Positions 10,997 through 33,047 are shown, numbered from the stretch's first letter. The stretch is DNA of 64,000 bases from a virus (IMGVR_UViG_3300009081_000012:12982-76981), one strand, 5' to 3'. Notes: generated from the letters alone by a model not told the origin. Numbers and translations: made by a program.

Positions 10997-11438
10997 ATGA
11001 AAATAGTTATAGTTAGCGGTTATTTTAATCCACTACATAGGACATATTGAGATGTTGAAATCAGCCAAAGCTATGGGTGGCTTGGTTTGTGTGATTGTTA
11101 ACAACGATATTCAACAAATTCTAAAAAAAGGCAAAATAATAATGAATGAAGAAGAACGTGTTAATATAGTTAAAGCTATAAAATACGTAGACATGGTGTA
11201 TCTATCTAAGGATGAGGACAGGACTGTCTGTAAAACAGTAACAAAAATAGCAGAACAGTTTTCTAACAACGGGTATGAATTAATATTTGCAAACGGCGGT
11301 GATAGAAATTGTTCAACGAGAGTTCCAGAAACAAATATATGTGAACGTTATGGTGTGAAAATGATCTTTGATTGTGGTGGTACCGAAAAGTTAAATTCAA
11401 GTTCTAACATTAATAAGCTATTAGGTAAAGAGGAGTGA
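10997..11438 (+). pseudogene. HIGH-family cytidylyl/adenylyltransferase, frameshifted at ~11039
   Basis: MKIVIVSGYFNPLH from ATG 10997, then cat-a-gga-cat continues in the 11052 frame (VNND, ERV.IV, FANGGDR, NSSS); 2 nt missing from HxGH. Confidence 0.8.
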
Positions 11439-12744: not shown

Positions 12745-13263
12745 ATGGCAACGATAACAATAATTTTATATACGTTGGTTATGTTAGCTATAGGTTTAGT
12801 AGCAGGGGCTAAATTATATAAACGAAATGAAATAAAAAACAATGTAACAAATAATGTGGTAAAAAAACCGTGGGGAGGATACACAGTAGTTGATTATGGA
12901 AAATCATACAAAATTAAATTATTAGGAATAATCAAAGGACATCGTTTATCACTACAATATCATCATCAACGTGAAGAACTTTGGGTTGTGCTAAAAGGTA
13001 CTGCTACGATACGGCTTGGTGAAAAAATGTATACGCTGAAACCTAAAAATTCATTTTTCGTGGCAAAAAGAGCATTACACAGAATAGAGAACAGACACGA
13101 TGAGCTGTTGATTATATTAGAAATTCAAATAGGTGATTATTTAGAGGAAGACGATATAGTAAGAGTACAGGACGATTATGAAAGAGATAGTAAAACAAAT
13201 GAAGAGAAGACATCAACAAAAAAGGAAAAACTGAATACCGTAGTACCAATCGATTTAATTTAA
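12745..13263 (+). CDS. Cupin of the mannose-6-phosphate isomerase type II (ManC C-terminal) family with an N-terminal TM anchor
   Basis: KPWG, LSLQYHHQREELW, HRIEN, EIQ.G.YLEEDDIVR.QDDY.R. Confidence 0.9.
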   Translation: MATITIILYTLVMLAIGLVAGAKLYKRNEIKNNVTNNVVKKPWGGYTVVDYGKSYKIKLLGIIKGHRLSLQYHHQREELWVVLKGTATIRLGEKMYTLKPKNSFFVAKRALHRIENRHDELLIILEIQIGDYLEEDDIVRVQDDYERDSKTNEEKTSTKKEKLNTVVPIDLI

Positions 13264-13965: not shown

Positions 13966-14041
13966 GCTAGAGTAACTCAGTTGGAAGAGTACCTCACTTG
14001 TAATGAGGACGTCGCGGGTTCAATTCCTGCCTCTAGCTCCA
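13966..14041 (+). tRNA. tRNA-Thr(UGU)
   Basis: Acceptor GCTAGAG/CTCTAGC, anticodon arm CCTCA-CTTGTAA-TGAGG, GGTTCAATTCC T-arm, encoded CCA. Confidence 0.95.
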
Positions 14042-14084: not shown

Positions 14085-14460
14085 ATGATATTAAAGGTAA
14101 AGAGATATACAACAAAGTACAACGAACAGAAATGGTATAGATGAATTTATGTGCGGTTATTATGATCATATGAACATGTCACCTGAAACATATAAATTTT
14201 ATCTTAGTAGGCTATATCCAGATCATTTAGTGCCTTTGAATAAAAACTCCGCCGGAGTAGAAGTATATCTACCTTATTTAAATGATTCATTAATAGATGT
14301 TTATAAACAAATTCCACTATTTAAAAAAGTATCTAAAATAGATAGAAAAATAATCATGAAGGAATTAGGCAGAAAACTTAAAATACCAAACGAAATTATT
14401 GATCGAAATAAATATGGTTTTTGTGATGCGTTTTTAGACAAAAACAAGGAATCTGTATGA
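14085..14460 (+). pseudogene. Remnant of an asparagine-synthase-like (AsnB C-terminal) gene
   Basis: G-I-D-E-F-M-C-G-Y, LPYL, K.I.K...IP.EIIDR.K.GF; ATP-binding N-terminus absent and ATG 14085 is out of frame. Confidence 0.65.
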
Positions 14461-14928: not shown

Positions 14929-15567
14929 ATGAGTGACGAAGAAGATGAGAAAAAAAGAGAGCTTTTGTGGCGTTCTAAATTTACAATTCATCCGATAATC
15001 TATAAAGCACAAGATAATTGTAGAAGAGATGTAAGAACATTTATTTTTGATAAGAGTTACATTTTAGAAAGATATATAGATCATTTTCATTTAAGAGCGT
15101 ACACCGATACAGATATAATGTATAAAATATTGATGTGGGTTATAGATAGCTTACAATACGTAGGTGACGAGAAAACAAGAAGACAACACGAATATTGGCA
15201 AAATCCAGAGGAAACTTTATGTACGCTGCTTGGTGATTGTGAAGATGGAAGTTTATTAATAAAATCATTATCTTTAATAGCAGGAGTTCCTGACTGGAAA
15301 GTAAAAATAGTAGCTGGAAAAGTTGCAGAGGGAGGTCACGCTTATTGTACGTACATTAGGGATGATGATACACAAGTTATTTTAGATTGGTGCTATTGGG
15401 CAAACCGTTTGCCTATAAACGAGAGACTTCCAATTGAAAAAGAAACTAACTATAAAGAAATTTGGTTTTCATTTGACAAAGAAAACGGATATGCATCAAA
15501 ACCAACAGAATACGGTGCAGGAAAAGTAGGGACTACTGGTGTTGAGGTTAAAGAATTTTTTGACTAA
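14929..15567 (+). CDS. Transglutaminase-like cysteine protease
   Basis: YWQ.PEETL...GDCED, GHAY, ILD (Cys-His-Asp triad). Confidence 0.85.
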   Translation: MSDEEDEKKRELLWRSKFTIHPIIYKAQDNCRRDVRTFIFDKSYILERYIDHFHLRAYTDTDIMYKILMWVIDSLQYVGDEKTRRQHEYWQNPEETLCTLLGDCEDGSLLIKSLSLIAGVPDWKVKIVAGKVAEGGHAYCTYIRDDDTQVILDWCYWANRLPINERLPIEKETNYKEIWFSFDKENGYASKPTEYGAGKVGTTGVEVKEFFD

Positions 15568-15582: not shown

Positions 15583-15610
15583 TTGACAATTTCAAAAAAG
15601 TGCTTATTAT
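15583..15610 (+). promoter_or_regulatory. sigma70-type promoter of the glycosylation operon
   Basis: TTGACA-N16-TATTAT. Confidence 0.7.
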
Positions 15611-15642
15611 AAAATGTATAATAACAGTATAGGAGATAACAC

Positions 15643-16146
15643 TTGAACAAATTATGTTTAAATGTAGGATGTGGGGAAAAAACATATGCTTTTTATCCTA
15701 ACGAAGAATACAAATGTATTAATCTAGACAACAGGGCTCTTTCTAATGTTCAGATTGTAGGGGATGTTAGAAAGTTGGATTTTCCAAACGAACATTTTGA
15801 TTATATTTTAGCAAGCGATATAATCGAACATTTTCCAATTAGTAAAACAGAAAGTTTGCTTAATGAATGGGCAAGGGTTTTAAAGGTTGGTGGTATTATG
15901 GAAATAAGAACACCTAACATTGAGTGGATGGTTGTACATTATGCTCAAACAAGAGACTGTAAGTTTGTATCGTGGCATATTTTTGGCGGGCAAGATTATC
16001 CAGGAAATTACCACTATGTTATATTTGATAGATCTTTATTAAATGAGTTTTGTAATAAAGTAGGTTTGTATGAAGTTGAGTATGAAAATCTTGATTCTAA
16101 CTTCACACTAAAAGTAATTAAACAAGGTTATTTAAACGAGGCGTAG
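15643..16146 (+). CDS. Class I SAM-dependent methyltransferase
   Basis: LNVGCG, FD.I.AS.IIEH, RVLK.GG. Confidence 0.9.
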   Translation: MNKLCLNVGCGEKTYAFYPNEEYKCINLDNRALSNVQIVGDVRKLDFPNEHFDYILASDIIEHFPISKTESLLNEWARVLKVGGIMEIRTPNIEWMVVHYAQTRDCKFVSWHIFGGQDYPGNYHYVIFDRSLLNEFCNKVGLYEVEYENLDSNFTLKVIKQGYLNEA

Positions 16147-16149
16147 AAA

Positions 16150-17028
16150 ATGAATGTTATAGTTAGACCGGTATTCAACAGACCTGAAATGCTTTATCTT
16201 GCTCTTAAATATGAACAAAAAGCCAGAGAACATTTTGATGATGATTATTATACTATATTTGCAATTGATCATGGGACTTGTGATAAATGTTTTGATATAA
16301 TAAAAGATTACAAATACAAGCATGTTGTTGTAGCCCGCCCAACAAGATACAAAGTATGTGCTAATATTATGGAGGCTTTAAAACAAGCATGCACGATGGA
16401 CACAGAGTATGTTATAAACATGGAGGACGATCTTGTTTTACATAAATCATATTTTGAATTTGTTAATAAAGCGCATAACTTAGTAAAAGATAGAAAGTAT
16501 TCAGTTATCACCACGTGGGGTTATAAAGATTTTGGGGATCCAACTATACTTAAACAAACTGATTTTTCATGTGGTCCTGGTACTGTAATAAGCAAAGAGT
16601 TTTTTATAAAACACATGCTACAGTATGCTAATGCTGGATATTATAACAATTGGGTATCAACAATACAGAAAGTTAACGCGTTAAATAAAAATAACCCCAA
16701 TGCAAAATATACTGAAAAAAATGCTTTTACTCACTTAGATTGGGATGGTCTAATGAATAGAATGGTTGACTATGCCTCATACAGTAATGAGATATATGGT
16801 TATTCGTCTTTATGTTATAGATTGTTACATGTAGGATTTTATGGATTTAATAGACAGGGTGGAAAATTTCCGCCCGAATTAAAAACATTTGAAGAAAGAG
16901 TTGATTTTCTTGAACAAGGTATTTATAATCCAGATGTTTTAGCTCAATTAGATGGTGTTTATAAAGACTATTCTATATTTGATCCAAAATTAGATACTTG
17001 GGATGGTAATTTAATTTTAGAAAATTAA
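16150..17028 (+). CDS. GT-A glycosyltransferase (GT2/GT13-like)
   Basis: FNRPEML, NMEDDL (ExD), R..H.G..G.N. Confidence 0.75.
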   Translation: MNVIVRPVFNRPEMLYLALKYEQKAREHFDDDYYTIFAIDHGTCDKCFDIIKDYKYKHVVVARPTRYKVCANIMEALKQACTMDTEYVINMEDDLVLHKSYFEFVNKAHNLVKDRKYSVITTWGYKDFGDPTILKQTDFSCGPGTVISKEFFIKHMLQYANAGYYNNWVSTIQKVNALNKNNPNAKYTEKNAFTHLDWDGLMNRMVDYASYSNEIYGYSSLCYRLLHVGFYGFNRQGGKFPPELKTFEERVDFLEQGIYNPDVLAQLDGVYKDYSIFDPKLDTWDGNLILEN

Positions 17029-17040
17029 AGAAGGAGAAGG

Positions 17041-17874
17041 ATGCCGAAAATATCTATAGTTTCGTCCTATTTTAATCGTAAAAACGAATTATGGCGAACA
17101 TTAAAAGTAATGGACAAATCTTCATTTAAAGACTTTGAATATGTGATAGTTGATGATGGTAGTGATTATAGGCAGAGGATAGAAGATTTGGCTGAAGAAT
17201 TTAAATTTGTAAAACTAAAAAGAATCGAGCCGGCCGATAAACACCACATAAACCCTTGTATACCTTTCAACATGGGTATAGCTATGGCTGAAGGGGACAT
17301 AATAATACTACAAAGCCCAGAATGTATGCACATGGGAGATGTATTAAACTTCGTAGCAAACAATTCAAAAGACAATCAATATTTAGTATTCTCGTGTTAC
17401 TCATTAAGTCGCACATCGTCTAACAATCTGGAAAACATTAACTTTAATTTAACTTTACAAGATATAGAGAACAACACAACAAAAGCCATAGGTGGTTTTT
17501 CAAACAAGAGTTGTGATAGTGGTGGACGTTATGATACGTGGTTTGCTCACCCAACATATCGGCGTTGTTTAAATAATTTTTTGGTATCCATGCCAATGAA
17601 GGACATGCGCGACTTAGGAGGTTTCGATGAGCGGTTTGCTGATGGTTTTGCGTTTGATGATACTGATTTTGCGGTGAGAATCATGAAAAAGAAAATGGAA
17701 GTTAAATTTATAGAAAAGCCGTTTTGTTTACACCAATTTCATGAATCGGTACTAGAACATATATCTGATTTAAGAGTAAAAGAAGCTAAAAATAAAAAAT
17801 TATATGAGAAACTTTGTACATTACCTAATTATAAGATTAAAAACAGCTTTATACCCATCAAGGATAATTTATAA
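17041..17874 (+). CDS. GT2 glycosyltransferase
   Basis: ISIV..YFNR, IVDDGS, GGFDERF..G...DD.DF, HQ.H. Confidence 0.9.
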   Translation: MPKISIVSSYFNRKNELWRTLKVMDKSSFKDFEYVIVDDGSDYRQRIEDLAEEFKFVKLKRIEPADKHHINPCIPFNMGIAMAEGDIIILQSPECMHMGDVLNFVANNSKDNQYLVFSCYSLSRTSSNNLENINFNLTLQDIENNTTKAIGGFSNKSCDSGGRYDTWFAHPTYRRCLNNFLVSMPMKDMRDLGGFDERFADGFAFDDTDFAVRIMKKKMEVKFIEKPFCLHQFHESVLEHISDLRVKEAKNKKLYEKLCTLPNYKIKNSFIPIKDNL

Positions 17875-18729
17875 ATGATACCTAAACGGATGTATTTCTT
17901 TTGGAGCGGATCAGTATTATCATGGATGCGCTATATGACGTTATACTCATTTAGAAAACTCAATCCAGATTGGGAGATGGTCTTATGTTTATCTAAAAAT
18001 ACGATTACAGAGAAAAGCTGGGCCACTCCAGAAGTACAGGATTTTTTTAATTACAGTGGAAACAATTATTTAGACAAAATTTCAGAACTGTCTATACAAA
18101 CAGAGACGGTGGAATTCCCTGTTGATTTTAAAGCAAACATAGTTTCTCCTATCCATGAAAGCGATCTTTATAGATATTATAAATTATATAACGATGGTGG
18201 TTTTTACTCTGATATGGACATTCTATATTTTAGACCGATTAACGATTTTTATAGTTCGTTGTGTGATAACAATACCAACACTGTATTATACCATTGTGGT
18301 GGTTATGCGGCTATAGGATTTTTAGGAGCAGAAAAAGATAATATATTTTACAAAGATTTATTTAATTATGCTACAAACCTAACAGCAGTAAGTTCTTATC
18401 AGGCTTTTGGTGTTGGGCTTATTTATCAATTTTGTGAAATAGAAAAGAACAAAAAATCTATAAATAGCATAAGTGAGATATTAAAAAGTAAATACACCAA
18501 TTTAAATATTTGCTCAATACCAAGTTTTCTGGTTTATCAATACGACTGGAATAATATTAAAAATACCTTCGAACATGGGTACGCTGTTGATAGTTTTAAT
18601 TCAAAATCAATAGGCTATCATTGGTATGCCGGTTCTGCTATAGCACAAAAATACAACAATTTATTAAATGAAGGTAATTATACTAAGTATAAAACTACTT
18701 TTTCTGAACTGGTGAAAAGTGTTATATGA
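17875..18729 (+). CDS. GT32-like DxD glycosyltransferase, paralog 1
   Basis: MIPK..YFFW, SD..RY..LY..GG.YSDMD, YHWY. Confidence 0.85.
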   Translation: MIPKRMYFFWSGSVLSWMRYMTLYSFRKLNPDWEMVLCLSKNTITEKSWATPEVQDFFNYSGNNYLDKISELSIQTETVEFPVDFKANIVSPIHESDLYRYYKLYNDGGFYSDMDILYFRPINDFYSSLCDNNTNTVLYHCGGYAAIGFLGAEKDNIFYKDLFNYATNLTAVSSYQAFGVGLIYQFCEIEKNKKSINSISEILKSKYTNLNICSIPSFLVYQYDWNNIKNTFEHGYAVDSFNSKSIGYHWYAGSAIAQKYNNLLNEGNYTKYKTTFSELVKSVI

Positions 18730-20163
18730 AAATAATGACTGTTGTTGGCACACGCCCGGAATTAATTCGTCTTTGTATTATAATAGACAAACTTGACAAA
18801 CTTGTAGATCACAAACTTATATATACAAATCAGAACTATGATTATAATTTGAGTGGTAAATTTTTTGACGAACTAAAAATAAGAAAACCAGATTACACAT
18901 TTGAAATGGCCGGGAGCTCATTTGGTAATTTTCTTGGTAACGCTTTAATTGAATTTGAAAAAATATTGATGACAGAAAAACCAGACAAGGTCTTAATATT
19001 AGGCGATACTAATTCTGGATTGGTTTCCATCATAGCGGAACGGTATAAAATTCATGTGTATCATATGGAGGCTGGAAATAGATGTTATGATAAGAGAGTA
19101 CCGGAAGAAACCAATCGTCGTGTTATTGATCATCTTTCTACTTATAATCTTCCTTATACGGAGAACAGTAAATATAATCTTTTGAGCGAAGGTTTTCACA
19201 AGAATAATGTTTTTAAAACAGGTAATCCTATTTACGAGGTTTTAAAGTTTTATGAACACAACATAAACGAAAGTAATATTTTAAATGCATTGGGTTTAAT
19301 AGAAAAAGAATTCGTGTTAGTAACTGCACACAGGGCGGAGAATGTTGATAATTTAGATTCATTGTCTGATATAATAAAAGCTATAAATGAGATATCAAAA
19401 CAATTTAAAGTTGTATTTTCTTTACACCCGCGCACTAAAGACAAGTTAATTAAATTTAATGTAGATATGTCAGATGATATTATGTTTAGTGAGCCTTTTG
19501 GATTCTTCGATTTTGTTAAACTTGAAAAAAACGCTAAACTTATTATTAGTGATAGTGGTACCGTGACAGAGGAATCCTGTATTTTTGGGGTTCCGGTCAT
19601 AACCATCAGAAACACAACCGAAAGACAGGAAACTATAGAGTGTGGATCTAACATATTGTCAGGCATTAAGTGTGAGAATATTATGGGTGCGTTTAACGTA
19701 ATGTTAAAAAGAAATAACACGTGGACACCACCAAACGATTATATGGTAGATGGTGTGTCAGATGTAGTTATAAATATATTGTTAGGAACAAATTAATTAT
19801 GATACCAAAAAGAATATTTTTCTATTGGGACAGACCTTATATGTCTTGGATGCGTTTTATGACATTATATTCATTTAGGAAAATGAATCCAGATTGGGAA
19901 ATGATTTTATGTGTGTCATCTAATAAAGAATGGGATATTCAAAAAGACGACCAACGAGATTTTGCAAGCTATAAAGGGTATAACTATTTCGATAGAATAG
20001 TGGAACTAAATGTTTCAATTGAGAACGTTGGATACATGGATGGTATTGAATCTAAAGTTAGCGCAATTACTCCTATCCATGAAAGCGATCTTTATAGATA
20101 TTATAAATTATATAACGATGGTGGTTTTTACTCTGATATGGACATTCTATATTTTAGACCGAT
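18146..20163 (+). repeat. 94-bp perfect direct repeat (18146-18239 and 20070-20163)
   Basis: Base-by-base identity ctcctatccatgaaagc...ttttagaccgat inside the two GT32-like paralogs. Confidence 0.95.
18726..19796 (+). CDS. wecB: UDP-GlcNAc 2-epimerase family (FnlC/WbvD-like clade)
   Basis: VGTRPELIRL, LGDTNS, HMEAGNRC.D..VPEE.NR, HR.EN, SDSGT..EE, TER.E. Confidence 0.92.
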   Translation: MKIMTVVGTRPELIRLCIIIDKLDKLVDHKLIYTNQNYDYNLSGKFFDELKIRKPDYTFEMAGSSFGNFLGNALIEFEKILMTEKPDKVLILGDTNSGLVSIIAERYKIHVYHMEAGNRCYDKRVPEETNRRVIDHLSTYNLPYTENSKYNLLSEGFHKNNVFKTGNPIYEVLKFYEHNINESNILNALGLIEKEFVLVTAHRAENVDNLDSLSDIIKAINEISKQFKVVFSLHPRTKDKLIKFNVDMSDDIMFSEPFGFFDFVKLEKNAKLIISDSGTVTEESCIFGVPVITIRNTTERQETIECGSNILSGIKCENIMGAFNVMLKRNNTWTPPNDYMVDGVSDVVINILLGTN

Positions 20164-20653
20164 AGATAATTTTTATAGTCAAATAACACAAAGTGGGGCT
20201 GGAACTATTATATACGCCTGCAAAAAATACGCAGCTGTTGGATTTTTGGGGGCTGAAAAAGGCAATCCATTCTATATAGATTTATTAAAATCCGTGATTG
20301 GTTGGAATCATAATAATGAATGGGAAGCTTATGGTGAAATGCTACTTTATAGTTTCTTTGGTATAAAAAACAACCCGCTTGCGCTCATTGAAAATATAAA
20401 TAAAAAATACAAAGAAGCAAAAGCATATAACATACCAAAAGAATTAGTATATTGCTACGATTGTTTTGATATACAATCAGTTTACGATACACCGGTTGGC
20501 ATAAACAAATTTGATCCTGTGTCTATAGGCTACCATTGGTATGGCGGTCATCAACTTTCCAAAAAGCATAATAATGTTTTGGATGAAAATAATTATAGAA
20601 ATTACAAAATAACTTTTTCTGAAATAGTTAAAGAATTACAGGAGATGAACTAG
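19799..20653 (+). CDS. GT32-like DxD glycosyltransferase, paralog 2
   Basis: Same motifs as 17875; start reassigned to MIPKRIFFYW. Confidence 0.85.
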   Translation: MIPKRIFFYWDRPYMSWMRFMTLYSFRKMNPDWEMILCVSSNKEWDIQKDDQRDFASYKGYNYFDRIVELNVSIENVGYMDGIESKVSAITPIHESDLYRYYKLYNDGGFYSDMDILYFRPIDNFYSQITQSGAGTIIYACKKYAAVGFLGAEKGNPFYIDLLKSVIGWNHNNEWEAYGEMLLYSFFGIKNNPLALIENINKKYKEAKAYNIPKELVYCYDCFDIQSVYDTPVGINKFDPVSIGYHWYGGHQLSKKHNNVLDENNYRNYKITFSEIVKELQEMN

Positions 20654-21396
20654 TGGATAATAGATTTATAGTAGTGGTTCCGGTATTTAATTCAGAAAAA
20701 TATATTAAAAAATGTATAGAGTCGATTCTTTTTCAAAATTATTCTAATTATAAATTGGTTGTAATGGACGATTGTTCCACCGACAACACATATAATAATA
20801 TAAATAACATTCAGGATACAAATAACTATAATTTTGTTGTTTGTAAAAACCATTATCGTGTTGGCTCGGCTTTAGCCAACATAGTTAAAGGAATAGAGCT
20901 TTTTTCCCACAACCCAGAAGACGTCATAGTAACTGTTGATGGTGATGATTTTTTATACAACAATACAGTGTTAACATATTTAAATGGTGTATACCAAGAT
21001 GAAAATATTTATATGACATATGGCCAGTTCATACCACTAAGCGGCTCTTATGGTAAGTTTTGTAGACCTATTGCTGACACACGCAAATACAGAAAGGCAG
21101 AATGGTGTGCCAGTCATTTAAGGACCTTTAAAAATAAATTATGGTATAGAATTAATGACGCTGACTTAAGAGATAAAAATGGAGAATATTTTAAAGTTAC
21201 AGGAGACGCCGCCTATTTATATCCGTTGTTGGAAATGTGTGGGGCAAAGCATCATAAATTTGTAGATGAGATATTATACGTCTATAACGACATAAATCCG
21301 GCCAACGATATGAAGATTAACGTAACAGAACAAAAAAGAACTGCAACACACATCATAAACAAGACTCCGTATAATGAAATAGAGGGTGTTATATAA
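20653..21396 (+). CDS. GT2 glycosyltransferase
   Basis: VVVPVFN.EKYI.KCI.S, DDCSTD, VDGDD. Confidence 0.9.
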   Translation: MDNRFIVVVPVFNSEKYIKKCIESILFQNYSNYKLVVMDDCSTDNTYNNINNIQDTNNYNFVVCKNHYRVGSALANIVKGIELFSHNPEDVIVTVDGDDFLYNNTVLTYLNGVYQDENIYMTYGQFIPLSGSYGKFCRPIADTRKYRKAEWCASHLRTFKNKLWYRINDADLRDKNGEYFKVTGDAAYLYPLLEMCGAKHHKFVDEILYVYNDINPANDMKINVTEQKRTATHIINKTPYNEIEGVI

Positions 21397-22298
21397 TGAT
21401 AATCAACAGAGGTGTAGAAAATATAGATCTGCGTTGTAAAGATGAATTTGGTTATCTTTCACGGAAATATTCAAACGTGGCTTTTAATGTTGTTGACTGG
21501 AATAACAATAGCAACGATCGAAGGCGTGGTAAGAATATATTATTTACTACTGAGGGGGTTATAACAATACCAAAGAATTATGATCCTGAATATATAAAAA
21601 AATATGATGCTATGATTACTTTTAATTCTAAATTTAAAAAACTGCATCCTGAATTGAATGTTTATTTAATTAAAGGGGTGACTAATTGGTGTGATTATTT
21701 TTGGTTGGAATCTTTTCTTTCTTATGAAGAAAAAATAAAAGGAATATGCTCAATACAAACAGTGTATAATATGAAAATGCAGCATTATGGTGAAATTAAT
21801 CATTTGAAACACGACGTGATGTGTGGATTAACAACAGAACCGTTTTTAATTTTACACACCTATAGTAAAACAACCCCATTTGGTAAACCAAAATCTCGTC
21901 AAACACCTTTATCATTTAATCCAGGACATTATGAAAATTTAAAGAAAATCAATGAATATTTGTTCTGTTGGTGTCCTGAAAGTACGTATCATGAATTATG
22001 GAGCTATGATCATATTACAGAAAGATTATTTAATTGTTTTAAAGCTAAAACAGTAGCTATTTATTATGGATGTTACAATATAGAGGAACTTGTACCAAAA
22101 GAACTATTTATTGATTTTAGAGATTTTAATAACGATTTAAAGAATTTGTCAGCTTTTCTTATAGAATTGTCAAACGACAAAGAAAGATATAATTCCATGA
22201 TTAACTCTGCCTACAAATGGAATTTAACTAACGAAATAGGCGATATTGGAAAAGCTGAAGAAGTTATTAAGCATTGTGTAGAAAAATATAAATTTTAA
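21396..22298 (+). CDS. GT10 (fucosyltransferase-like) glycosyltransferase
   Basis: Y.F..C.ES...DHITERLF.CF.A.TV.IYYG...FID.RDF. Confidence 0.75.
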   Translation: MIINRGVENIDLRCKDEFGYLSRKYSNVAFNVVDWNNNSNDRRRGKNILFTTEGVITIPKNYDPEYIKKYDAMITFNSKFKKLHPELNVYLIKGVTNWCDYFWLESFLSYEEKIKGICSIQTVYNMKMQHYGEINHLKHDVMCGLTTEPFLILHTYSKTTPFGKPKSRQTPLSFNPGHYENLKKINEYLFCWCPESTYHELWSYDHITERLFNCFKAKTVAIYYGCYNIEELVPKELFIDFRDFNNDLKNLSAFLIELSNDKERYNSMINSAYKWNLTNEIGDIGKAEEVIKHCVEKYKF

Positions 22299-22315
22299 TT
22301 TAATGGGGTGTTATT

Positions 22316-22906
22316 GTGAAAATTTATATACAGATAGGTGCAAATATAGGAAATGATTCCTTTCAAAAAATGGTTGAACATATAGATGAAAAAATAAAAA
22401 TATTATTAATAGAACCAAATGCTGAGTTATTAGAAGAACTTTCAAACAATTATGAAAAATTAAGAAATAATCACGAAGTAATAATTGTTCCACATGGTAT
22501 ATCATTAATTAACGGAGACGCTGTTATGTACTTGTATCCAGAATCTGGACACTCTACACTGATAAATAGAAAAACAAGACCTTCTGAAGATAAGGCTTTT
22601 AAAAAAGTATCAATTACGACATTCAATACTTTGTGCGAAAAATTTTTTATAACCGATATAGAATATTTGTACATAGATACGGAAGGTTTGGATTATGAAA
22701 TATTGAATTCTATAGATTTATCAAAAATAAATATTAAAACCATAGTTTTTGAGAAATGGCCAATTGAGGATGACGACTTGTCTCAAAATTATAGAACTGG
22801 TACTATGTTTTTAAATAATTTTATTAAGCCTAAATTTAAAGATTATAGATTCGACGATATAGTAGTGGATGGTATGCCTAGTTATAAACTTACTAAAATG
22901 AAATGA
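22316..22906 (+). CDS. FkbM-family methyltransferase
   Basis: QIGANIG, LIEPN, L.IDTEG.D..IL, I.FE. Confidence 0.88.
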   Translation: MKIYIQIGANIGNDSFQKMVEHIDEKIKILLIEPNAELLEELSNNYEKLRNNHEVIIVPHGISLINGDAVMYLYPESGHSTLINRKTRPSEDKAFKKVSITTFNTLCEKFFITDIEYLYIDTEGLDYEILNSIDLSKINIKTIVFEKWPIEDDDLSQNYRTGTMFLNNFIKPKFKDYRFDDIVVDGMPSYKLTKMK

Positions 22907-22924
22907 TATAGGAGTAATAACATT

Positions 22925-23764
22925 ATGTACAATGAACTTACTGATGTTATAATTTATACTAAAGATAGGGCCTGTCAGTTGGATTTACTTTTAAGAAGTA
23001 TAAAGGATAATTTTATGAATACTCATAAAATATCCATACTAGAGGACTGGTCTAATGAAGAATTTAAACATGGGTACGATAAAATAAAAAGTACAGAGTA
23101 TGGTTTGGAACTAGAATTTATAAAACAGGATAGAGGTATTTTCTACAATGTTTTAAAACAAACCGCTGAGGCAAGTACAACAGAACATATACTGCCTCTC
23201 TGTGATGACGACGTCTTCATAAGACATACAGACATTACAGATGTTTCCAAATATGTGGATGCTGATGTAGTAGGCATTCATTTTAGATTTTCAAGTGATC
23301 TTACCATCAGTTATCATCATGGGGTTGTTTTACCTCAGCCCGATTTTATTTATATCGGTGATTATTTAAAATGGAATTGGACTACTTATAACATACCTGG
23401 TCGCTGGGGTTATCCATACCAAGCCGGTGGAATGGTTTATAAAACAGAATTTTTAAGACATATGATACATAATATTAAATTCGATTTACCAAATTATCTT
23501 GAATCTGCAATGATGACTAATAGGTATAAATGGAACAAACAACACATTGTAGCGTTTAAACATTCACCGATAGTTAATATTTCAATTAACAGAGTCCAGC
23601 AGGATGTCCCAAATCGAGGAGGCCGTGATGTTAATTATACACCTGTCGAACTAAATAATATTTTTCTAAGTGAAAAAATTATAGACACTGCTGATTTATA
23701 TGGTATGGTTAATAACTGTGAATTTATTGAAGTACCGCTTAAGTTTATGGAGGACACAAGATGA
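22925..23764 (+). CDS. GT-A glycosyltransferase
   Basis: TKDRA.QLD.LL.S, CDDDVF. Confidence 0.75.
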   Translation: MYNELTDVIIYTKDRACQLDLLLRSIKDNFMNTHKISILEDWSNEEFKHGYDKIKSTEYGLELEFIKQDRGIFYNVLKQTAEASTTEHILPLCDDDVFIRHTDITDVSKYVDADVVGIHFRFSSDLTISYHHGVVLPQPDFIYIGDYLKWNWTTYNIPGRWGYPYQAGGMVYKTEFLRHMIHNIKFDLPNYLESAMMTNRYKWNKQHIVAFKHSPIVNISINRVQQDVPNRGGRDVNYTPVELNNIFLSEKIIDTADLYGMVNNCEFIEVPLKFMEDTR

Positions 23765-24462
23765 AAGTAGGTGTATTGGGTGCGAATGGTTTTCTTGGAA
23801 GTGAGATGGTCAGAGTACTTGGTGAAGATCATACGGTGGTTTCTTTAACCAGGGATAATTATTTACAATATAAAGGAACTTCATTTGATGTGTTTATTAA
23901 TATGGCCGGCAACAATAAGAATTATTGGGCAAATAAATTTCCCCAAGAAGACTTTAAAGGTTCGGCCTTGTTGGTTTATGACAATCTTTTCGATTTTAAA
24001 ATAGATAAATATGTTTTTATGTCATCCATTGCAACATATGACATAAACAGTCATTATGGTTTTAATAAAACTTTAGCGGAAGAAATAATAAGAAGACATT
24101 CAAACAATTATTTAATTTTTAGATGTTCTGCCACTATTGACAGATGTATGAAAATAGGCATTTTAAATGATATTTTAAAAGGCATCCCTCTTTTTATATC
24201 TGGTGATAGTCAAATTCAATTCATAACCAGAAATGCCGTAGCTAACATAATAAAAGACCTGATGTCTACAGATGTGTACAATAGAACATTTAATATGGGT
24301 GGAGTTGGTGCAGTTACAATTAGTAGTATCGAATCCATTGTTGGGCATTCTATTATCTACGACAGTGCAGCAAAAAAAAGACATTATGAGATGGATGTAT
24401 GTGAATTAAATGAATTGTTCAAATTGAAAACATCTTATGAATATGTTGAGGATATAGTATGA
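23761..24462 (+). CDS. NAD-dependent epimerase/dehydratase (extended SDR)
   Basis: GANGFLG, SS, YGFNK (YxxxK). Confidence 0.88.
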   Translation: MKVGVLGANGFLGSEMVRVLGEDHTVVSLTRDNYLQYKGTSFDVFINMAGNNKNYWANKFPQEDFKGSALLVYDNLFDFKIDKYVFMSSIATYDINSHYGFNKTLAEEIIRRHSNNYLIFRCSATIDRCMKIGILNDILKGIPLFISGDSQIQFITRNAVANIIKDLMSTDVYNRTFNMGGVGAVTISSIESIVGHSIIYDSAAKKRHYEMDVCELNELFKLKTSYEYVEDIV

Positions 24463-24989
24463 TTTATGGCTCACTTGCTGAATTTGTGCAACTAAATGCT
24501 GATAGAAACGACAGTGCTTTAGATATAGGCTGTGGTATTGGGGCATACTCAAATGTTCTTAAAGAATACGTTAGATGTAAAAAGGTTGTTACTATAGATG
24601 CTTGGGATAAAGTCAATCCGGATATTTTGATAGATTTAGAAAAAGAAGACATACCTTTCGAAGACAATACCTTTGATATTATATTGATGATGGATTTTAT
24701 AGAACATTTAACTAAAGACCGAGGCATTAAAATATTAAAACAGGCTATGGGGATAGTAAAAAAAAGAATTTTGTTATTAACACCTTTATGGTGGACAGAC
24801 AATTCTGACAATGTCAATGATCCTACTTTATGGTGTTACACAAATGTGTATGATTTACATAAATCGTTGTGGTTGCTGGATGATTTTGTGGAATGGTCCA
24901 GAGTAACTATCAATGATTTCGATGTGTCTGGTGTTTCAAATGATTATTTTGTTGGTATTTGGACAAAAAATCATAATTATAAACAGTAA
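24459..24989 (+). CDS. Class I SAM-dependent methyltransferase
   Basis: LDIGCGIG, FD.I...D.IEHL, H.S.W. Confidence 0.88.
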   Translation: MIYGSLAEFVQLNADRNDSALDIGCGIGAYSNVLKEYVRCKKVVTIDAWDKVNPDILIDLEKEDIPFEDNTFDIILMMDFIEHLTKDRGIKILKQAMGIVKKRILLLTPLWWTDNSDNVNDPTLWCYTNVYDLHKSLWLLDDFVEWSRVTINDFDVSGVSNDYFVGIWTKNHNYKQ

Positions 24990-24992
24990 CAT

Positions 24993-26009
24993 ATGGAGGA
25001 GTTTGTGGAAGAAATGATGTTCAAAAATAAATCAATTTTAATTACTGGAGCAACTGGGTCTTGGGGGCAGGAACTTACAAAACAGCTCATTACTATGGAG
25101 CCAAAGAAAATTATCCTATTTTCCAGAGGAGAGCTGGCTCAGGTAAATATGGAAAGAAAGTTTATGAGCGATAAGTTAGAGTTCGTTATAGGAGACGTGC
25201 GGGACACCAACGCGGTAGATAGATTATTTAACAATAAACAAATCGACTGTGTCTTCCATTTGGCAGCCCTAAAACACGTACCAGTGTGTGAAAATCAACC
25301 ACAGGAAGCTATAAAAACAAACATTATAGGAACAACCAACCTGGTCAACTCAGCGGTGAAATACAAGGTAAAGAAGTTTGTAGATGTATCCACCGATAAA
25401 GCAGTATCCCCCACTAACCTGTATGGGTTCACCAAAGCAGTAGGTGAGAAGATAGTTATTCAAGCCAACAATCTAACAAACCGTACAGACTTTGTTTGTG
25501 TAAGGGGAGGAAATGTTTTAGGTTCTAATGGTAGCGTTGTTCCTTTGTTCATTGACCAGATAAAGAAATTTAATAAGATTACACTTACATGTGGAGAAAT
25601 GACTAGATTTTTCTTAACGCTTTCGGAAGCCATCTCATTACTTTTCCAGGCTGCTGAATTTAGTGTGGGCGGGGAAACGTTTGTTATGAATATGCCATCG
25701 TTTAATATATCTGATGTAGCAGAAGCACTTATAGATCACTATGGAGACGCAGATACAACTATAGAAGAAATTGGTATAAGAGAAGGAGAGAAGATACATG
25801 AGGTGTTAGTGTCTGAACATGAGTCTTCAAGATCTTATGTTTTCAACAATGATTATTATGTCATTATGCCCGAACTAAAAATTTCAAGAGATTATAGTCA
25901 TATAAAGAATATGAACAAGGTTTCCTTCGATAGATTTTCGTCAGACACTAATATTAAAGATCAGGAATATTTAACAGGGCTTCTTAATAAGGGAGGATTT
26001 TTGGTATGA
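24993..26009 (+). CDS. UDP-GlcNAc 4,6-dehydratase (FnlA/WbvB/PseB family)
   Basis: ITGATGSWG, FSR.E, HLAALKHVP.CE, STDKAV.P.N.YG.TKA, GNV.GS.GSV.PLF, MTRF, GEK.HE. Confidence 0.92.
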   Translation: MEEFVEEMMFKNKSILITGATGSWGQELTKQLITMEPKKIILFSRGELAQVNMERKFMSDKLEFVIGDVRDTNAVDRLFNNKQIDCVFHLAALKHVPVCENQPQEAIKTNIIGTTNLVNSAVKYKVKKFVDVSTDKAVSPTNLYGFTKAVGEKIVIQANNLTNRTDFVCVRGGNVLGSNGSVVPLFIDQIKKFNKITLTCGEMTRFFLTLSEAISLLFQAAEFSVGGETFVMNMPSFNISDVAEALIDHYGDADTTIEEIGIREGEKIHEVLVSEHESSRSYVFNNDYYVIMPELKISRDYSHIKNMNKVSFDRFSSDTNIKDQEYLTGLLNKGGFLV

Positions 26010-26824
26010 AAGTTTTTGTATTAGGTCACAAAGGAATGCTAGGTAGGTATGTTTATACCTATTTGAAATCAAAAAACTATGATGTTGTAGGATTATCTCG
26101 TTCTGAAATAGATGCCTCATGTATTTCCAGTGTCGAATTAAAATCTAAATTATTAGATGTAGATTTTAATGAAGGAGATGTGGTTATAAATTGTATAGGC
26201 ATAATCAAAAGAAACGATGTTCCAAAAAAAGACTTCACTGCGGTTAACACTGTTTTTCCACACACACTTGCTTATGTTTGTGAACGTGTTGGAGCAGAAC
26301 TTATACACGTTAGTACAGATTGTGTTTATGATGGTCTTGAAGGAAATTATAATGAGAATCATGTACATACTGCAAAAGATTTGTATGGTATAAGTAAATC
26401 AGAAGGAGAAATAGGTAATATCACAATAATACGAACATCTCTTATTGGTGAGGAGCTTGATCAACAACGTTCTTTAATAGAATGGATTAAATCCAACAAA
26501 AACAACACAGTTTCTGGTTATACTAATCATGTGTGGAACGGTATTACATGTTTACAGTTTGCCAAACTGTGTGATGAGATTATGGAAGAAGAACTTTTTT
26601 GGCGCGGAGTAAAACACATTACATCTCCATCTAAAATAACCAAACACGATTTGGTTAAACTTGTATCAGAGATTTATGAATTAAATGTCACTGTTATTCC
26701 TCATGAAACTGAAACAAAATGTGATAGGTCTTTATCCAGTGTTCGCGGAGAAATAGTGTTCAAGATTCCTGAGTTACGAGAACAACTAATAGAAATGAAA
26801 TCTTTTACACTTGACAAATACTAA
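26006..26824 (+). CDS. RmlD-like NDP-4-keto-6-deoxy sugar reductase (WbvR-like)
   Basis: G..GMLG, INCIG, STDCV.DG, DLYG.SK..GE, RTS.IG. Confidence 0.88.
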   Translation: MKVFVLGHKGMLGRYVYTYLKSKNYDVVGLSRSEIDASCISSVELKSKLLDVDFNEGDVVINCIGIIKRNDVPKKDFTAVNTVFPHTLAYVCERVGAELIHVSTDCVYDGLEGNYNENHVHTAKDLYGISKSEGEIGNITIIRTSLIGEELDQQRSLIEWIKSNKNNTVSGYTNHVWNGITCLQFAKLCDEIMEEELFWRGVKHITSPSKITKHDLVKLVSEIYELNVTVIPHETETKCDRSLSSVRGEIVFKIPELREQLIEMKSFTLDKY

Positions 26825-26838
26825 AAAGGTATTATAAT
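26811..26838 (+). promoter_or_regulatory. sigma70-type promoter for dam
   Basis: TTGACA-N16-TATAAT. Confidence 0.8.
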
Positions 26839-30083: not shown

Positions 30084-31139
30084 ATGGATCAAGATAATAG
30101 TCTGGATTTAATTATTAGGAATGGTTTAGATCTTACTGATAAAGCTAATACACATTTAACATCGTTACTTGATAAAACAAATGTGTTTAATCAGATAACA
30201 ACGAGAGCTGTAGAGGGAATGGATCTGATACCAAAATTTCATGTTTTTGATGAAGGTAAATTAGCAATCATAGCCGAAAGAATGCCAGAAATCAACAGAG
30301 CCACGCGCGCATTAGGTAGGAAAAACACACAAACAACAAACAGATTAATGACTCTTACTATGTTGAACGGTATTTCACCTATGAGAATAGTGCGTCAGTG
30401 TTTGTCAGAAATAGAAAATCGTAGACAGGCTATAAAAGAAAATAGATTTAAAATAGCAGAAAACTATGTTAAACTTAACAAAATAAAATATGAAATAAAT
30501 AAAGTAGAAAACAAACTTAATGTGGTAGCCACATCTATATTAGAAGCCGAACAAAACAACAAAACACAGGAATTGGTTGAGTTTAAAGATACACAAACTA
30601 ACTTGTTGTTTGATTTGGATCTTAAAAAAATAAAAATGGAAAAGCTTATTACCACGATACACGATTCAATGTTGTATCTAGAAGGAGCTCTGAAAGATGT
30701 TGCTTCTTTTCAAGCATCTTATTTACAGATATGCAAGAATAAAAATATACCTGAAAACTGGGATGAAAGAGATTTAGAAGAGGCAGAAGTTAGGCATCAT
30801 GTACAAATGGGTTTTCTGCTTCTACTAAGAGATTTGTTGACCGGCGGGCGAATAGGAATGGCTACTGCCGAATATTTACAACAGTTTGGAATTCATCCAA
30901 TGATGGCAAGTGATTTAACAGCTGAATATATTCAAAAATGTTCAGGAAAATTAGCAGAATTAAGAAGTAAAGAGGAAGTTTATTTAGATGAGTTATTAAG
31001 TATAGACAGCCTTCATGAGTTTTTGGAAGATATAAGTGATAAGTTTAAAGATGAATATAAAAAGGTATTGAAACAGATAGGTATAGAAGATTTACACGAA
31101 GACTGGTATATGTATAAAGATCACTATAAAGGGGACTGA
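30084..31139 (+). CDS. Coiled-coil protein of unknown function
   Basis: Long central heptad-rich helix; AAGGAG SD. Confidence 0.8.
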   Translation: MDQDNSLDLIIRNGLDLTDKANTHLTSLLDKTNVFNQITTRAVEGMDLIPKFHVFDEGKLAIIAERMPEINRATRALGRKNTQTTNRLMTLTMLNGISPMRIVRQCLSEIENRRQAIKENRFKIAENYVKLNKIKYEINKVENKLNVVATSILEAEQNNKTQELVEFKDTQTNLLFDLDLKKIKMEKLITTIHDSMLYLEGALKDVASFQASYLQICKNKNIPENWDERDLEEAEVRHHVQMGFLLLLRDLLTGGRIGMATAEYLQQFGIHPMMASDLTAEYIQKCSGKLAELRSKEEVYLDELLSIDSLHEFLEDISDKFKDEYKKVLKQIGIEDLHEDWYMYKDHYKGD

Positions 31140-31143
31140 TTAA

Positions 31144-32223: not shown

Positions 32224-32254
32224 TTCTTTAAAATAGGAAAAGGAGATTTTTATA

Positions 32255-33007: not shown

Positions 33008-33047
33008 AGCGTGTGTGTAAAGACTTGAATAAGGGAGATCAAAACAA

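What the first reader, a model, noticed from the sequence alone, without database searches (positions are those of the whole stretch)
15583..26824. Self-contained 14-gene phage glycosylation operon with a rare-sugar pathway
Seen: one promoter, seven glycosyltransferases (GT2 x2, GT32-like x2, GT10-like, two other GT-A), three methyltransferases and four nucleotide-sugar enzymes, with no flippase or polymerase in the window. Known: a 4,6-dehydratase, an RmlD-like reductase and an FnlC-clade 2-epimerase are the WbvB/WbvR/WbvD set that makes UDP-L-RhaNAc and then UDP-L-QuiNAc. Inference: cytoplasmic assembly of a multi-residue O-methylated glycan on virion proteins, as in giant-virus fibrils, rather than O-antigen conversion.
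Basis: partly seen in the sequence, partly recalled or inferred. Interest (0 to 1): 0.75.

Follow-up and report, generated by a model that had tools for sequence, protein, structure and literature searches.

The report
Giant-phage rare-sugar glycan operon
A fragment of a very large uncultured soil and sediment phage carries 14 tightly packed genes that should make a rare bacterial-type amino sugar and build a methylated sugar chain from it inside the infected cell. What the chain is attached to (the phage particle, the host surface or the phage DNA) is still unknown.

Summary
Fourteen co-directional, almost gap-free genes (15643-26824) sit between two near-consensus sigma-70-type promoters. 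They encode seven glycosyltransferases, three SAM methyltransferases and four nucleotide-sugar enzymes. No membrane or export protein is present.

The sugar pathway needs one correction. The reductase belongs to a Cys-bearing RmlD-like family that sits in three-gene cassettes in bacteria. The 4,6-dehydratase, however, keeps the catalytic Tyr (PseB/FlaA1/Mg534 type). It lacks the Met of FnlA/CapE, which all 25 bacterial cassette dehydratases readable at that motif have. The closest studied counterpart is therefore Megavirus Mg534/535/536 (UDP-L-RhaNAc to UDP-L-QuiNAc), not strictly WbvB/R/D.

Related islands occur in huge phages (200-640 kb) with a mosaic transferase content. Two complete genomes among them gave no hit to the Wzx, Wzy/ligase or priming-transferase models searched.

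The target is not resolved. My estimates are phage proteins about 0.4, host envelope glycan about 0.3 and DNA about 0.12. A divergent thymidylate-synthase homologue 3.3 kb upstream makes the DNA reading worth testing, but it is not co-inherited with the island.

The scan has noted similar phage glycan islands on other DNA several times.

The parts
15583..15610 (+). Sigma-70-type promoter-like site, TTGACA-16-TATTAT (11/12)
   Evidence: It is one of five such sites in the window, all on the coding strand. It lies in the 75-bp gap before the first gene.
15643..16146 (+). g01, SAM methyltransferase (Methyltransf_11), TTG start after AGGAG
   Evidence: (43 bits). Homologues at 50-53% identity in L003, L009 and L051.
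16150..17028 (+). g02, GT2-family glycosyltransferase (weak match)
   Evidence: 24.7 bits, cut-off 23.3. No homologue in related islands apart from a 28% match in L054.
17041..17874 (+). g03, GT-A transferase (GT2 plus Glyco_transf_7C); candidate 6-deoxy-L-HexNAc transferase
   Evidence: AF2 pLDDT 95. Foldseek best matches are K4CP and PmHS2, then ppGalNAc-T2 and TarP. Present in 8 related islands. Its homologues and those of g14 list the same longest-contig lengths, which suggests shared contigs; this was not checked by contig name.
17875..18729 (+). g04, GT32-like retaining GT-A (Gly_transf_sug, DXD), paralogue a
   Evidence: AF2 pLDDT 84. Foldseek best matches by E-value are SetA, YeGT and PaTox, with glycogenin, Skp1 GalT and LgtC also listed.
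18726..19796 (+). g05, non-hydrolysing 2-epimerase of the CapG/FnlC/WbvD clade
   Evidence: 301 bits; wecB, 280 bits. CapG 7YA2 scores 334 bits against 123 for E. coli WecB. 63-73% identical in 11 viral loci.
19799..20653 (+). g06, GT32-like paralogue b (the ORF opens at GTG 19721; likely start is ATG 19799)
   Evidence: 48% identical to g04 from MIPKR onward; a 134-nt stretch 90% identical, 1924 nt apart.
20653..21396 (+). g07, GT2 glycosyltransferase (module B)
   Evidence: 68 bits. Conserved next to g08 and g10 homologues in L014-L018.
21396..22298 (+). g08, GT10-like (fucosyltransferase-family) transferase (module B)
   Evidence: 41.7 bits. (fucosyltransferase 7YRO). 32-60% identical in L014-L018.
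22316..22906 (+). g09, FkbM-family methyltransferase
   Evidence: 58 bits; TIGR01444, 62 bits.
22925..23764 (+). g10, probable GT-A-like transferase of a large, mostly phage family without a Pfam model (module B)
   Evidence: sub-threshold. Atlas cluster of 1278 members, 86% viral; TM 0.85 to part of proteins that carry a GT-D domain..
23761..24462 (+). g11, compact 233-aa SDR (GANGFLG, YGFNK); second nucleotide-sugar reductase or epimerase, specificity unknown
   Evidence: Atlas pLDDT 0.91, NAD-dependent epimerase/dehydratase clusters, many of them viral.
24459..24989 (+). g12, SAM methyltransferase (Methyltransf_11)
   Evidence: 40.6 bits. 52% identical homologue next to the dehydratase in L006 and L007.
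24993..26009 (+). [quoted passage not shown]
   Evidence: 334 bits. PseB 311 bits against FnlA 237; the motif PTNLYGFTK.
26006..26824 (+). g14, RmlD-like 272-aa reductase (STDC, YGISK); predicted 3-epimerase/4-reductase like Mg535, or 4-reductase like WbvR
26811..26838 (+). Next promoter-like site, TTGACA-16-TATAAT (12/12); marks the downstream boundary (Dam, PD-(D/E)XK, AAA_28, HD genes follow)

Best explanation
What it is (confidence about 0.9). The stretch is one transcription unit of a giant tailed phage. It encodes only soluble enzymes and works in the host cytoplasm.

Sugar pathway. g13 converts host UDP-GlcNAc to the 4-keto-6-deoxy-L intermediate. g14 epimerises and reduces it to a UDP-6-deoxy-L-HexNAc, most likely UDP-L-RhaNAc. 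g05 inverts C2, most likely giving UDP-L-QuiNAc. g11 may make a second C4 epimer.

Glycan assembly. Seven transferases then build an oligosaccharide. g03 is the best candidate to use the rare sugar. Three methyltransferases O-methylate the chain.

Target (inferred, confidence about 0.4). The glycan is most likely put directly onto phage-encoded proteins, probably outer virion parts such as fibres. This would resemble Megavirinae fibrils and mycobacteriophage capsids, and differ from a lipid-carrier route for export.
For: Composition and tight coupling.

Pathway.
- The epimerase is closest to CapG.
- The dehydratase has Tyr-x3-Lys like FlaA1 and Pen and like Mg534 (PMC9614988).
- The reductase is the same size as Mg535 and carries STDC where solved RmlDs have STDY.
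- Its bacterial homologues lie next to a 4,6-dehydratase and a 2-epimerase in 24 of 30 loci, with partial cassettes in four more.
- The triad recurs in 7 of 11 phage loci seeded with the epimerase.
- Megavirus fibrils carry L-RhaNAc, 4-O-methyl-L-RhaNAc and L-QuiNAc.

No export route.
- No multi-pass membrane ORF in the record or in the related loci.
- No Wzy_C, Polysacc_synt, Bac_transf or Glycos_transf_4 in five island-bearing genomes, two of them complete, while the control genomes did give hits.

Leads towards a protein acceptor.
- The best Foldseek E-values for the GT32 model are cytoplasmic protein-glycosylating enzymes.
- Islands that share module B also carry MptE-like/Maf and CMP-sugar synthetase domains.
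- The transferase content is mosaic between relatives, as expected for a surface glycan under selection.
- T-[VILT]-S-G occurs 10 times in late proteins against 0.5 expected.
Against: No sugar has been seen on anything.
- The operon is not in the structural module. It lies between nucleotide-metabolism-type genes, 23 kb upstream of the terminase. In the closest relative (L007) it lies beside nuclease, methylase and clamp-loader genes.
- The T-x-S-G motif sits inside a longer fibre repeat, T-x-SG-x-LQ-[DE]-QID, so it may be purely structural.
- The g03 model matches polysaccharide polymerases best, which does not single out a protein-initiating enzyme.
- Structural matches for the GT32 model are modest (TM 0.4-0.58) and include the lipo-oligosaccharide enzyme LgtC.
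- The stereochemistry of g14 and g11 cannot be read from sequence, so L-FucNAc or L-PneNAc remain possible.
- Only 28% of the genome is in hand.
Confidence: 0.4

Rival explanations
1. Host-envelope remodelling. The soluble phage transferases act on the host's own undecaprenyl-linked O-antigen, capsule or teichoic-acid intermediates. The host's priming enzyme and transporter export the altered glycan. This changes the cell surface during a long infection, for example to block superinfection or to stop progeny re-adsorbing.
For: The enzyme families are those of bacterial surface-polysaccharide loci. The g14 homologues sit in bacterial cassettes. g03 is closest in fold to capsule polymerases K4CP and PmHS2 and resembles the prophage teichoic-acid transferase TarP. 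The closest relative's island holds a methyltransferase followed by a RIO/protein-kinase-like gene; from my own knowledge this recalls the WbdD chain terminator of ABC-transporter-dependent O-antigens. The lack of a phage flippase does not argue against this, because TarP-type enzymes need none.
Against: Seven transferases would make a wholly new chain. Host Wzx, Wzy or ABC transporters and ligases are often structure-specific (established knowledge, not tested here). No initiating transferase, GtrA/B/C-type set, flippase or ligase was found in two complete island-bearing genomes. Known phage serotype conversion uses one to three genes and is typical of temperate phages. No integrase or lysogeny gene was noticed in the part of the window I annotated.
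Confidence: 0.3
2. DNA hyper-glycosylation. The short ThyA-like enzyme at 11660-12316 makes a C5-hydroxymethyl (or similar) dUMP. The AAA_28 and HD genes downstream handle the nucleotide pool. Some of the operon's transferases then attach sugars to that base in phage DNA to defeat restriction.
For: The ThyA homologue keeps the catalytic Cys and the Asn that specifies uracil. It has Asp where E. coli ThyA has Leu143, and it lacks about 45 C-terminal residues. This pattern holds in all 18 family members: the Leu143 position is D, N, H or T and never Leu. According to PMC13326640 a polar or acidic residue there correlates with non-methyl products. That paper also shows ThyA homologues lying next to sugar-nucleotide genes and transferases that poly-glycosylate DNA. 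Pyle et al. found GT-A and GT-B enzymes near ThyS that put up to three sugars on DNA, with TarP as the top PDB match, as for g03. Genes near ThyA-like family members include GT4 'conflict' transferases, PolA and dUTPase. In L051 the ThyA-like gene is followed directly by an AAA_28 homologue.
Against: The two features are not co-inherited. No ThyA-like homologue was found in five island-bearing genomes, including the closest relative (87% complete) and two complete ones, which have ordinary Leu143 ThyA far from the island. No 2-epimerase was found in five genomes bearing the ThyA-like gene, one of them complete. No ThyA-like gene lies within 10 kb of the island in L003-L018. Known DNA glycans have one to three sugars from one to three transferases; here there are seven transferases and three methyltransferases. 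No Tet/JBP hit was found, but that search had no positive control.
Confidence: 0.12
3. The product is not attached to virion, envelope or DNA. It would be a free or lipid- or small-molecule-linked cytoplasmic methylated oligosaccharide, for example a storage, chaperone-like or decoy glycan. Alternatively it is a glycan on a non-virion phage or host protein.
For: All 14 products are soluble enzymes and no acceptor gene lies in the operon. From my own knowledge, cytoplasmic polymethylated polysaccharides made by soluble transferases and methyltransferases exist in mycobacteria.
Against: No precedent in phages. The rapid turnover of transferase content between relatives fits a surface-exposed, selected glycan better.
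Confidence: 0.1

Closest known systems
Megavirus chilensis fibril glycosylation cluster mg534-mg539 (Piacente et al. 2014; reviewed in PMC9614988 and PMC10117803)
   Same: Both are virus-encoded and cytoplasmic. [quoted passage not shown] The Megavirus glycan includes O-methylated L-RhaNAc. Neither has a flippase.
   Different: The host here is a bacterium and the virus is a tailed phage. The dehydratase is no closer to Mg534 (154 bits) than to bacterial PseB, Pen or FnlA (about 228 bits), so the likeness is in function and not in recent ancestry. This operon has seven single-domain transferases and three methyltransferases and no pyruvyltransferase. The acceptor here is unknown.
Vibrio cholerae O37 WbvB/WbvR/WbvD and similar bacterial cassettes (UDP-L-RhaNAc to UDP-L-QuiNAc)
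   Same: Three enzymes of the same superfamilies. Homologues of g14 sit beside a 4,6-dehydratase and a 2-epimerase in 24 of 30 bacterial loci examined.
   Different: All 25 bacterial cassette dehydratases readable at the motif have Met in the catalytic Tyr position, like FnlA and CapE. The phage enzymes have Tyr. I take it from the literature that WbvB is FnlA-like; I did not test its sequence.
Mycobacteriophage virion O-glycosylation (Freeman et al. 2023, Cell Host Microbe; known to me from citations in PMC12619734, paper not held)
   Same: Phage-encoded transferases, in some phages with a methyltransferase, decorate the phage's own capsid and tail-tube proteins in the cytoplasm.
   Different: Those systems have few genes, lie beside structural genes and use host nucleotide sugars. 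This operon has 14 genes including a rare-sugar pathway, and it lies outside the structural module.
Phage DNA glycosylation gene clusters (Pyle et al., bioRxiv 10.1101/2023.12.21.572611; Lee et al. 2026, PMC13326640)
   Same: Transferases with LPS- or teichoic-acid-like folds, sometimes with sugar-nucleotide genes, lie near a ThyA homologue among DNA-metabolism genes.
   Different: Those clusters have one to three transferases and give mono- to tri-saccharides. Their base-modifying enzyme is co-inherited with the transferases, which is not the case here.

Membership tests
Mg534/Mg535/Mg536-type UDP-L-RhaNAc / UDP-L-QuiNAc pathway | [quoted passage not shown] | tested here: met
   g13 has PTNLYGFTK, aligned to the Tyr of FlaA1 and Pen. 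Mg534 Tyr140-x3-Lys144 is described in PMC9614988. PseB HMM 311 bits against FnlA 237.
Mg534/Mg535/Mg536-type UDP-L-RhaNAc / UDP-L-QuiNAc pathway | RmlD-like NADPH enzyme of about 270 aa that 3-epimerises and 4-reduces, with a catalytic Cys | tested here: inconclusive
   272 aa, RmlD_sub_bind fold, YGISK, and Cys in STDC where solved RmlDs have Tyr. I could not check that this is the Cys of Mg535. Stereochemistry cannot be read from sequence.
Mg534/Mg535/Mg536-type UDP-L-RhaNAc / UDP-L-QuiNAc pathway | 2-epimerase of the WbvD/WbjD/CapG clade rather than WecB proper | tested here: met
   CapG 7YA2 scores 334 bits against 123 for E. coli WecB.
Mg534/Mg535/Mg536-type UDP-L-RhaNAc / UDP-L-QuiNAc pathway | Products are UDP-L-RhaNAc and UDP-L-QuiNAc | not testable with these tools
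   Needs enzyme assays with NMR or MS.
WbvB/WbvR/WbvD or FnlA-led bacterial cassette | FnlA/CapE-type trifunctional dehydratase with Met replacing the catalytic Tyr | tested here: not met
   g13 and all seven readable phage-island homologues have Tyr. FnlA (4J2O), CapE and 25 bacterial cassette enzymes have Met.
FnlA/FnlB/FnlC (UDP-L-FucNAc) | FnlB/CapF/WbjC-type reductase of about 370 aa | tested here: not met
   g14 has 272 aa and no hit to NF047837. g11 has only a 20-bit N-terminal hit against a cut-off of 500.
Pseudaminic acid pathway (PseB-led) | PseC aminotransferase, PseH, PseG, PseI and PseF alongside PseB | tested here: not met
   None of the 14 genes or their neighbours has an aminotransferase, NeuB-like or CMP-synthetase domain. 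PseB score is 311 bits, below the cut-off of 408.
Wzx/Wzy- or ABC-transporter-dependent surface polysaccharide locus | Initiating phosphoglycosyl transferase, flippase or ABC transporter, polymerase or ligase | tested here: not met
   No multi-pass ORF. PF04932, PF01943, PF02397 and PF00953 are absent from five island-bearing genomes while controls gave hits. ABC2_membrane was not searched.
Phage DNA glycosylation gene cluster | A base-hydroxylating or hydroxymethylating enzyme (ThyA homologue or 5mYOX) genetically linked to the transferases | tested here: inconclusive
   A ThyA-like gene with Leu143 replaced by Asp lies 3.3 kb upstream. It is absent from five island-bearing genomes, and the epimerase is absent from five genomes that carry the ThyA-like gene.
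Mycobacteriophage-type virion glycosylation | Transferase genes beside capsid or tail genes; glycans on virion proteins | tested here: inconclusive
   Position not met: 23 kb from the terminase, among nucleotide-metabolism genes. Glycans on virions cannot be tested with these tools.

The most novel reading that the evidence does not exclude
The phage replaces thymine with a hydroxymethyl-uracil-type base made by its short ThyA-like enzyme. It then decorates its DNA with a complex, O-methylated glycan containing 6-deoxy-L-HexNAc. That would be far larger and chemically richer than any DNA glycan known.
Probability: 0.12. Interest if true: 0.85.

Novelty: new variant of a known kind. Interest (0 to 1): 0.5.

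Why it matters
Virus-encoded glycan factories are established for giant eukaryotic viruses and, in a small form, for mycobacteriophages. This operon and its relatives show that huge tailed phages of soil and sediment carry the same functional type of rare-sugar route as Megavirus, joined to a swappable set of transferases.

If the glycan coats the particle, that would bear on phage adsorption, stability and recognition in the environment, and on phage engineering. If it goes onto DNA, it would widen the chemistry of anti-restriction modifications.

The Tyr-versus-Met split between phage and bacterial dehydratases gives a simple marker. It can sort such islands in metagenomes and help choose enzymes for making UDP-L-RhaNAc and UDP-L-QuiNAc.

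Tried and rejected
- Megablast of the operon against 50,697 phage records: no match.
- The search for related loci in genome contigs with g14 alone: one marginal locus only. Replaced by a phylum-wide genome search.
- Idea that g03 (GT2 plus 7C) is a ppGalNAc-T-like protein-initiating enzyme: not supported. Polysaccharide polymerases match better.
- Idea that a Cys-versus-Tyr difference in the reductase covaries with dehydratase type: rejected. STDC occurs in both phage and bacterial homologues.
- T-x-S-G as a glycosylation sequon: the enrichment is real, but the motif is part of a longer fibre repeat. I treat it as a weak lead only.
- Ser/Thr-rich tags: only two short stretches, at 33048-34439 and 59506-60009. 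Not informative.
- Neighbours of the island in L007 have no homologue in this record (empty BLAST output).
- Tet_JBP search: no hit, but the controls also gave none, so it is uninformative.
- Sequencing runs: no RNA holder listed. Laid contigs gave single-contig joints at the GT32 repeat (17910 to 19842 in X6; 20069 back to 18146 in X4). These are too weak to call variants.
- Complex prediction was not used, because no specific enzyme-acceptor pair could be proposed.

Full report
**Setting.** The window is bases 12982-76981 of a 76,981-bp IMG/VR record that CheckV rates 28% complete. G+C is about 32% and nearly all genes lie on one strand. The window encodes a large terminase, a portal-like protein, PhoH, a volactin and fibre-like proteins. 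The terminase is only 26-28% identical to those of cultured Bacillus phages and Microcystis phage MaeS. It is therefore a fragment of a very large uncultured tailed phage. The same operon sequence, with 0-3 differences per contig, occurs in soil metagenomes of a separate study, as well as in the freshwater-sediment sample that may be its source.

**Observation.** Fourteen ORFs run from 15643 to 26824, separated by -4 to +18 bp.
- *Transferases.* Pfam and NCBIfam give seven glycosyltransferase-like proteins: 16150, 17041, 17875, 19799, 20653, 21396 and 22925.
- *Methyltransferases.* There are three SAM methyltransferases: 15643, 22316 and 24459.
- *Sugar-nucleotide enzymes.* There are four: 18726, 23761, 24993 and 26006.
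- *Weak assignments.* 16150 is just over the GT2 cut-off. 22925 is below it, but the ESM Atlas places it in a large, mostly viral GT-A-like family.
- *The short SDR.* The 233-aa SDR at 23761 has intact GxxGxxG and YxxxK motifs and a confident Atlas model.
- *The GT32 paralogues.* The two GT32-like genes are 48% identical, flank the 2-epimerase and share a 134-nt stretch of 90% identity. The second most likely starts at 19799.
- *Promoters.* A TTGACA-16-TATTAT site lies in the only sizeable gap upstream, followed by AGGAG and a TTG start. It belongs to a set of five near-consensus sites in the window (a sixth lies upstream in the record). All have a 16-bp spacer and all lie on the coding strand. 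The next one, a perfect match at 26811, marks the downstream edge.
- *No terminator* follows the operon.
- *No membrane proteins.* No ORF of the whole record has more than three hydrophobic segments.

**The sugar pathway.**
- *Reductase in bacteria.* The reductase has 272 aa and is RmlD-like. In 401 genomes of one bacterial phylum, 34 have a homologue. In 24 of the 30 loci fetched, that homologue lies beside both a 4,6-dehydratase and a 2-epimerase, and four more loci show one of the two. The trio is therefore a real cellular cassette.
- *Reductase motif.* The whole reductase family has Cys in STDC where three solved RmlDs have Tyr.
- *Dehydratase.* Here the phage differs from bacteria. The phage enzyme, and all seven phage-island homologues that could be read, keep the catalytic Tyr (PTNLYGFTK). 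H. pylori FlaA1/PseB and B. thuringiensis Pen have the same Tyr. A. baumannii FnlA, S. aureus CapE and all 25 bacterial cassette enzymes that show the motif have Met there. NCBIfam agrees: PseB 311 bits, FnlA 237.
- *Megavirus parallel.* Published work describes exactly this division of labour in Megavirus chilensis. Mg534 has Tyr140-x3-Lys144 and does only the 4,6-dehydration and C5 inversion. Mg535 (270 aa) is an RmlD-like 3-epimerase/4-reductase. Mg536 is a WbvD-like 2-epimerase. The fibrils carry L-RhaNAc, 4-O-methyl-L-RhaNAc and L-QuiNAc.
- *Conclusion.* I file the pathway as working like Mg534/535/536. It fails one defining feature of the FnlA/WbvB-led cassette. A pseudaminic-acid route is excluded by the lack of an aminotransferase and later enzymes. 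An FnlB/CapF-type reductase is absent. Sequence cannot tell whether the product is L-RhaNAc/L-QuiNAc or the talo/galacto pair.

**Relatives.**
- *Distribution.* The epimerase finds 11 viral loci at 63-73% identity, on contigs of 22-501 kb. The GT10-like gene finds five more, one of them on a complete 640-kb genome.
- *Module A.* Mapping all 14 genes onto these loci shows two modules. Module A is the triad together with GT32-like, GT2+7C and Methyltransf_11 genes.
- *Module B.* Module B is GT2 followed by the GT10-like gene and then the 22925 family. The window joins both modules.
- *Unshared genes.* 22316 (FkbM) and 23761 (short SDR) have no counterpart in the loci fetched, and 16150 has only a 28% match in L054.
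- *Link between g03 and g14.* Homologues of GT2+7C and of the reductase list the same longest-contig lengths, which suggests shared contigs. One relative appears to fuse GT32 and GT2+7C in a single 1,753-aa ORF. GT2+7C is therefore my candidate for the transferase that uses the rare sugar.
- *Closest relative.* It has a terminase 66% identical and is 87% complete. Its island sits beside nuclease, HNH, two GT4 genes, a Dam-like methylase and a clamp loader. Its dehydratase carries an intein.
- *Module-B islands elsewhere.* These also hold GDP-mannose dehydratase, cytidylyltransferase, MptE-like/Maf and radical-SAM/B12 genes.
- *No export genes.* Five island-bearing genomes, two of them complete, have no Wzy_C, Polysacc_synt, Bac_transf or Glycos_transf_4 hit, although the control genomes did give hits.

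**What is the acceptor?** This cannot be settled in silico.
- *For phage proteins.* There is no carrier or export machinery. The transferase content varies between relatives. The best Foldseek E-values for the GT32 model are cytoplasmic protein glycosyltransferases (SetA, YeGT, PaTox), with glycogenin and the Skp1 GalT also listed, though TM-scores are only 0.4-0.58 and LgtC also appears. Sister islands carry Maf-type domains. T-[VILT]-S-G occurs 10 times in 3,419 residues of late proteins against 0.5 expected.
However, nine of the ten copies lie in two fibre-like proteins, and in one of them they sit inside a longer T-x-SG-x-LQ-[DE]-QID repeat. A structural origin is at least as likely as a sequon.
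- *For the host envelope.* The families are those of surface-polysaccharide loci. g03 resembles capsule polymerases and TarP. Soluble phage enzymes can act on host lipid-linked polymers without their own flippase.

**The DNA rival needed real work.**
- *The ThyA homologue.* A 218-aa ThyA homologue lies 3.3 kb upstream. It keeps the catalytic Cys, Asp169 and Asn177. It has Asp where E. coli ThyA has Leu143, Leu in place of His147, and no C-terminal 45 residues. All 18 viral family members show the same pattern.
- *What the literature says.* A 2026 paper links a polar residue at position 143 to non-methyl products. It also shows ThyA homologues clustered with sugar-nucleotide genes and transferases that poly-glycosylate DNA. 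Pyle et al. found GT-A and GT-B enzymes near ThyS that install up to trisaccharides.
- *Neighbourhood.* ThyA-like genes often have GT4 'conflict' transferases, PolA and dUTPase as neighbours. In one relative an AAA_28 homologue follows directly. In the window, AAA_28 and an HD hydrolase lie just downstream of the operon.
- *Against a functional link.* The ThyA-like gene is absent from all five island-bearing genomes, three of which have ordinary Leu143 ThyA far away. The epimerase is absent from five ThyA-like-bearing records, one of them complete. No ThyA-like gene lies within 10 kb of any related island. Seven transferases plus three methyltransferases also far exceed any known DNA glycan. 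I put this rival at about 0.12.

**Verdict.**
The enzymology is well supported and slightly re-assigned. The virion-glycan inference is plausible but unproven.
- *Classification.* This is a new variant of a known kind, virus-encoded autonomous glycosylation clusters.
- *Earlier notes.* Earlier notes of this scan describe comparable phage islands on other DNA, so it is one instance of a recurring feature of large phages.

Noticed in passing
window 11660-12316: Short (218 aa) thymidylate-synthase homologue. Cys146, Asp169 and Asn177 are kept, Leu143 is Asp, His147 is Leu, and the C-terminus is missing. It defines a phage family of at least 18 members with the same pattern. It is a candidate dUMP C5-hydroxymethylase or similar enzyme, so this phage may carry a modified thymine.
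   Followed up: partly
window 3865, 15583, 26811, 40434, 47078 (also 11,109 bases before the window): Family of near-consensus TTGACA-16-TATxxT promoter-like sites, all on the coding strand and all in intergenic gaps. Together with AGGAG ribosome sites, they point to a host with classical sigma-70/sigma-A promoters rather than Bacteroidota.
   Followed up: partly
window 12745-13263 and 11052-11438: A MannoseP_isomer-type cupin with an N-terminal hydrophobic helix, and a small cytidylyltransferase-like protein. These are further sugar-related genes upstream of the operon whose role is unknown.
   Followed up: no
window 13966-14038: A tRNA gene (Rfam 65.5 bits) between the cupin gene and an asparagine-synthase-like fragment (14149-14460). 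A transglutaminase-like cysteine peptidase (14929-15567) directly precedes the operon promoter.
   Followed up: no
window 17875-20653: The two GT32-like paralogues flank the 2-epimerase and share a 134-nt stretch of 90% identity, 1924 nt apart. Single metagenome contigs join across or loop back at this repeat (17910 to 19842 in X6; 20069 back to 18146 in X4). This hints at variants without the epimerase or at assembly ambiguity.
   Followed up: partly
L007 15758-17848, and G004 30883-33810: In the closest relative the 4,6-dehydratase carries an intein with a LAGLIDADG domain (696 aa in total). The terminase gene has an insert of about 1.2 kb within one open frame.
   Followed up: no
L007 12486-13611: A methyltransferase followed by a RIO/protein-kinase-like gene inside the relative's island. 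From my own knowledge this resembles the methyltransferase-kinase chain terminator WbdD of O-antigen synthesis.
   Followed up: no
L008 4746-10004: A single 1,753-aa open frame directly upstream of the epimerase. It appears to fuse GT32-like and GT2+7C-like domains, like the multi-domain transferases of giant viruses. The frame came from a script that extends to the nearest stops; I did not check it with another tool.
   Followed up: no
L014-L018: Islands that share the GT2, GT10-like and 22925-family module are larger. They also hold GDP-mannose dehydratase, cytidylyltransferase, MptE-like/Maf, aminotransferase and radical-SAM/B12-binding genes.
   Followed up: partly
window 60046-61623 and 62841-63998: Fibre-like proteins with a coiled-coil heptad run (STLQGDV repeated) and a recurring T-x-SG-x-LQ-[DE]-QID unit. 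This unit accounts for much of the Thr-x-Ser-Gly enrichment.
   Followed up: partly
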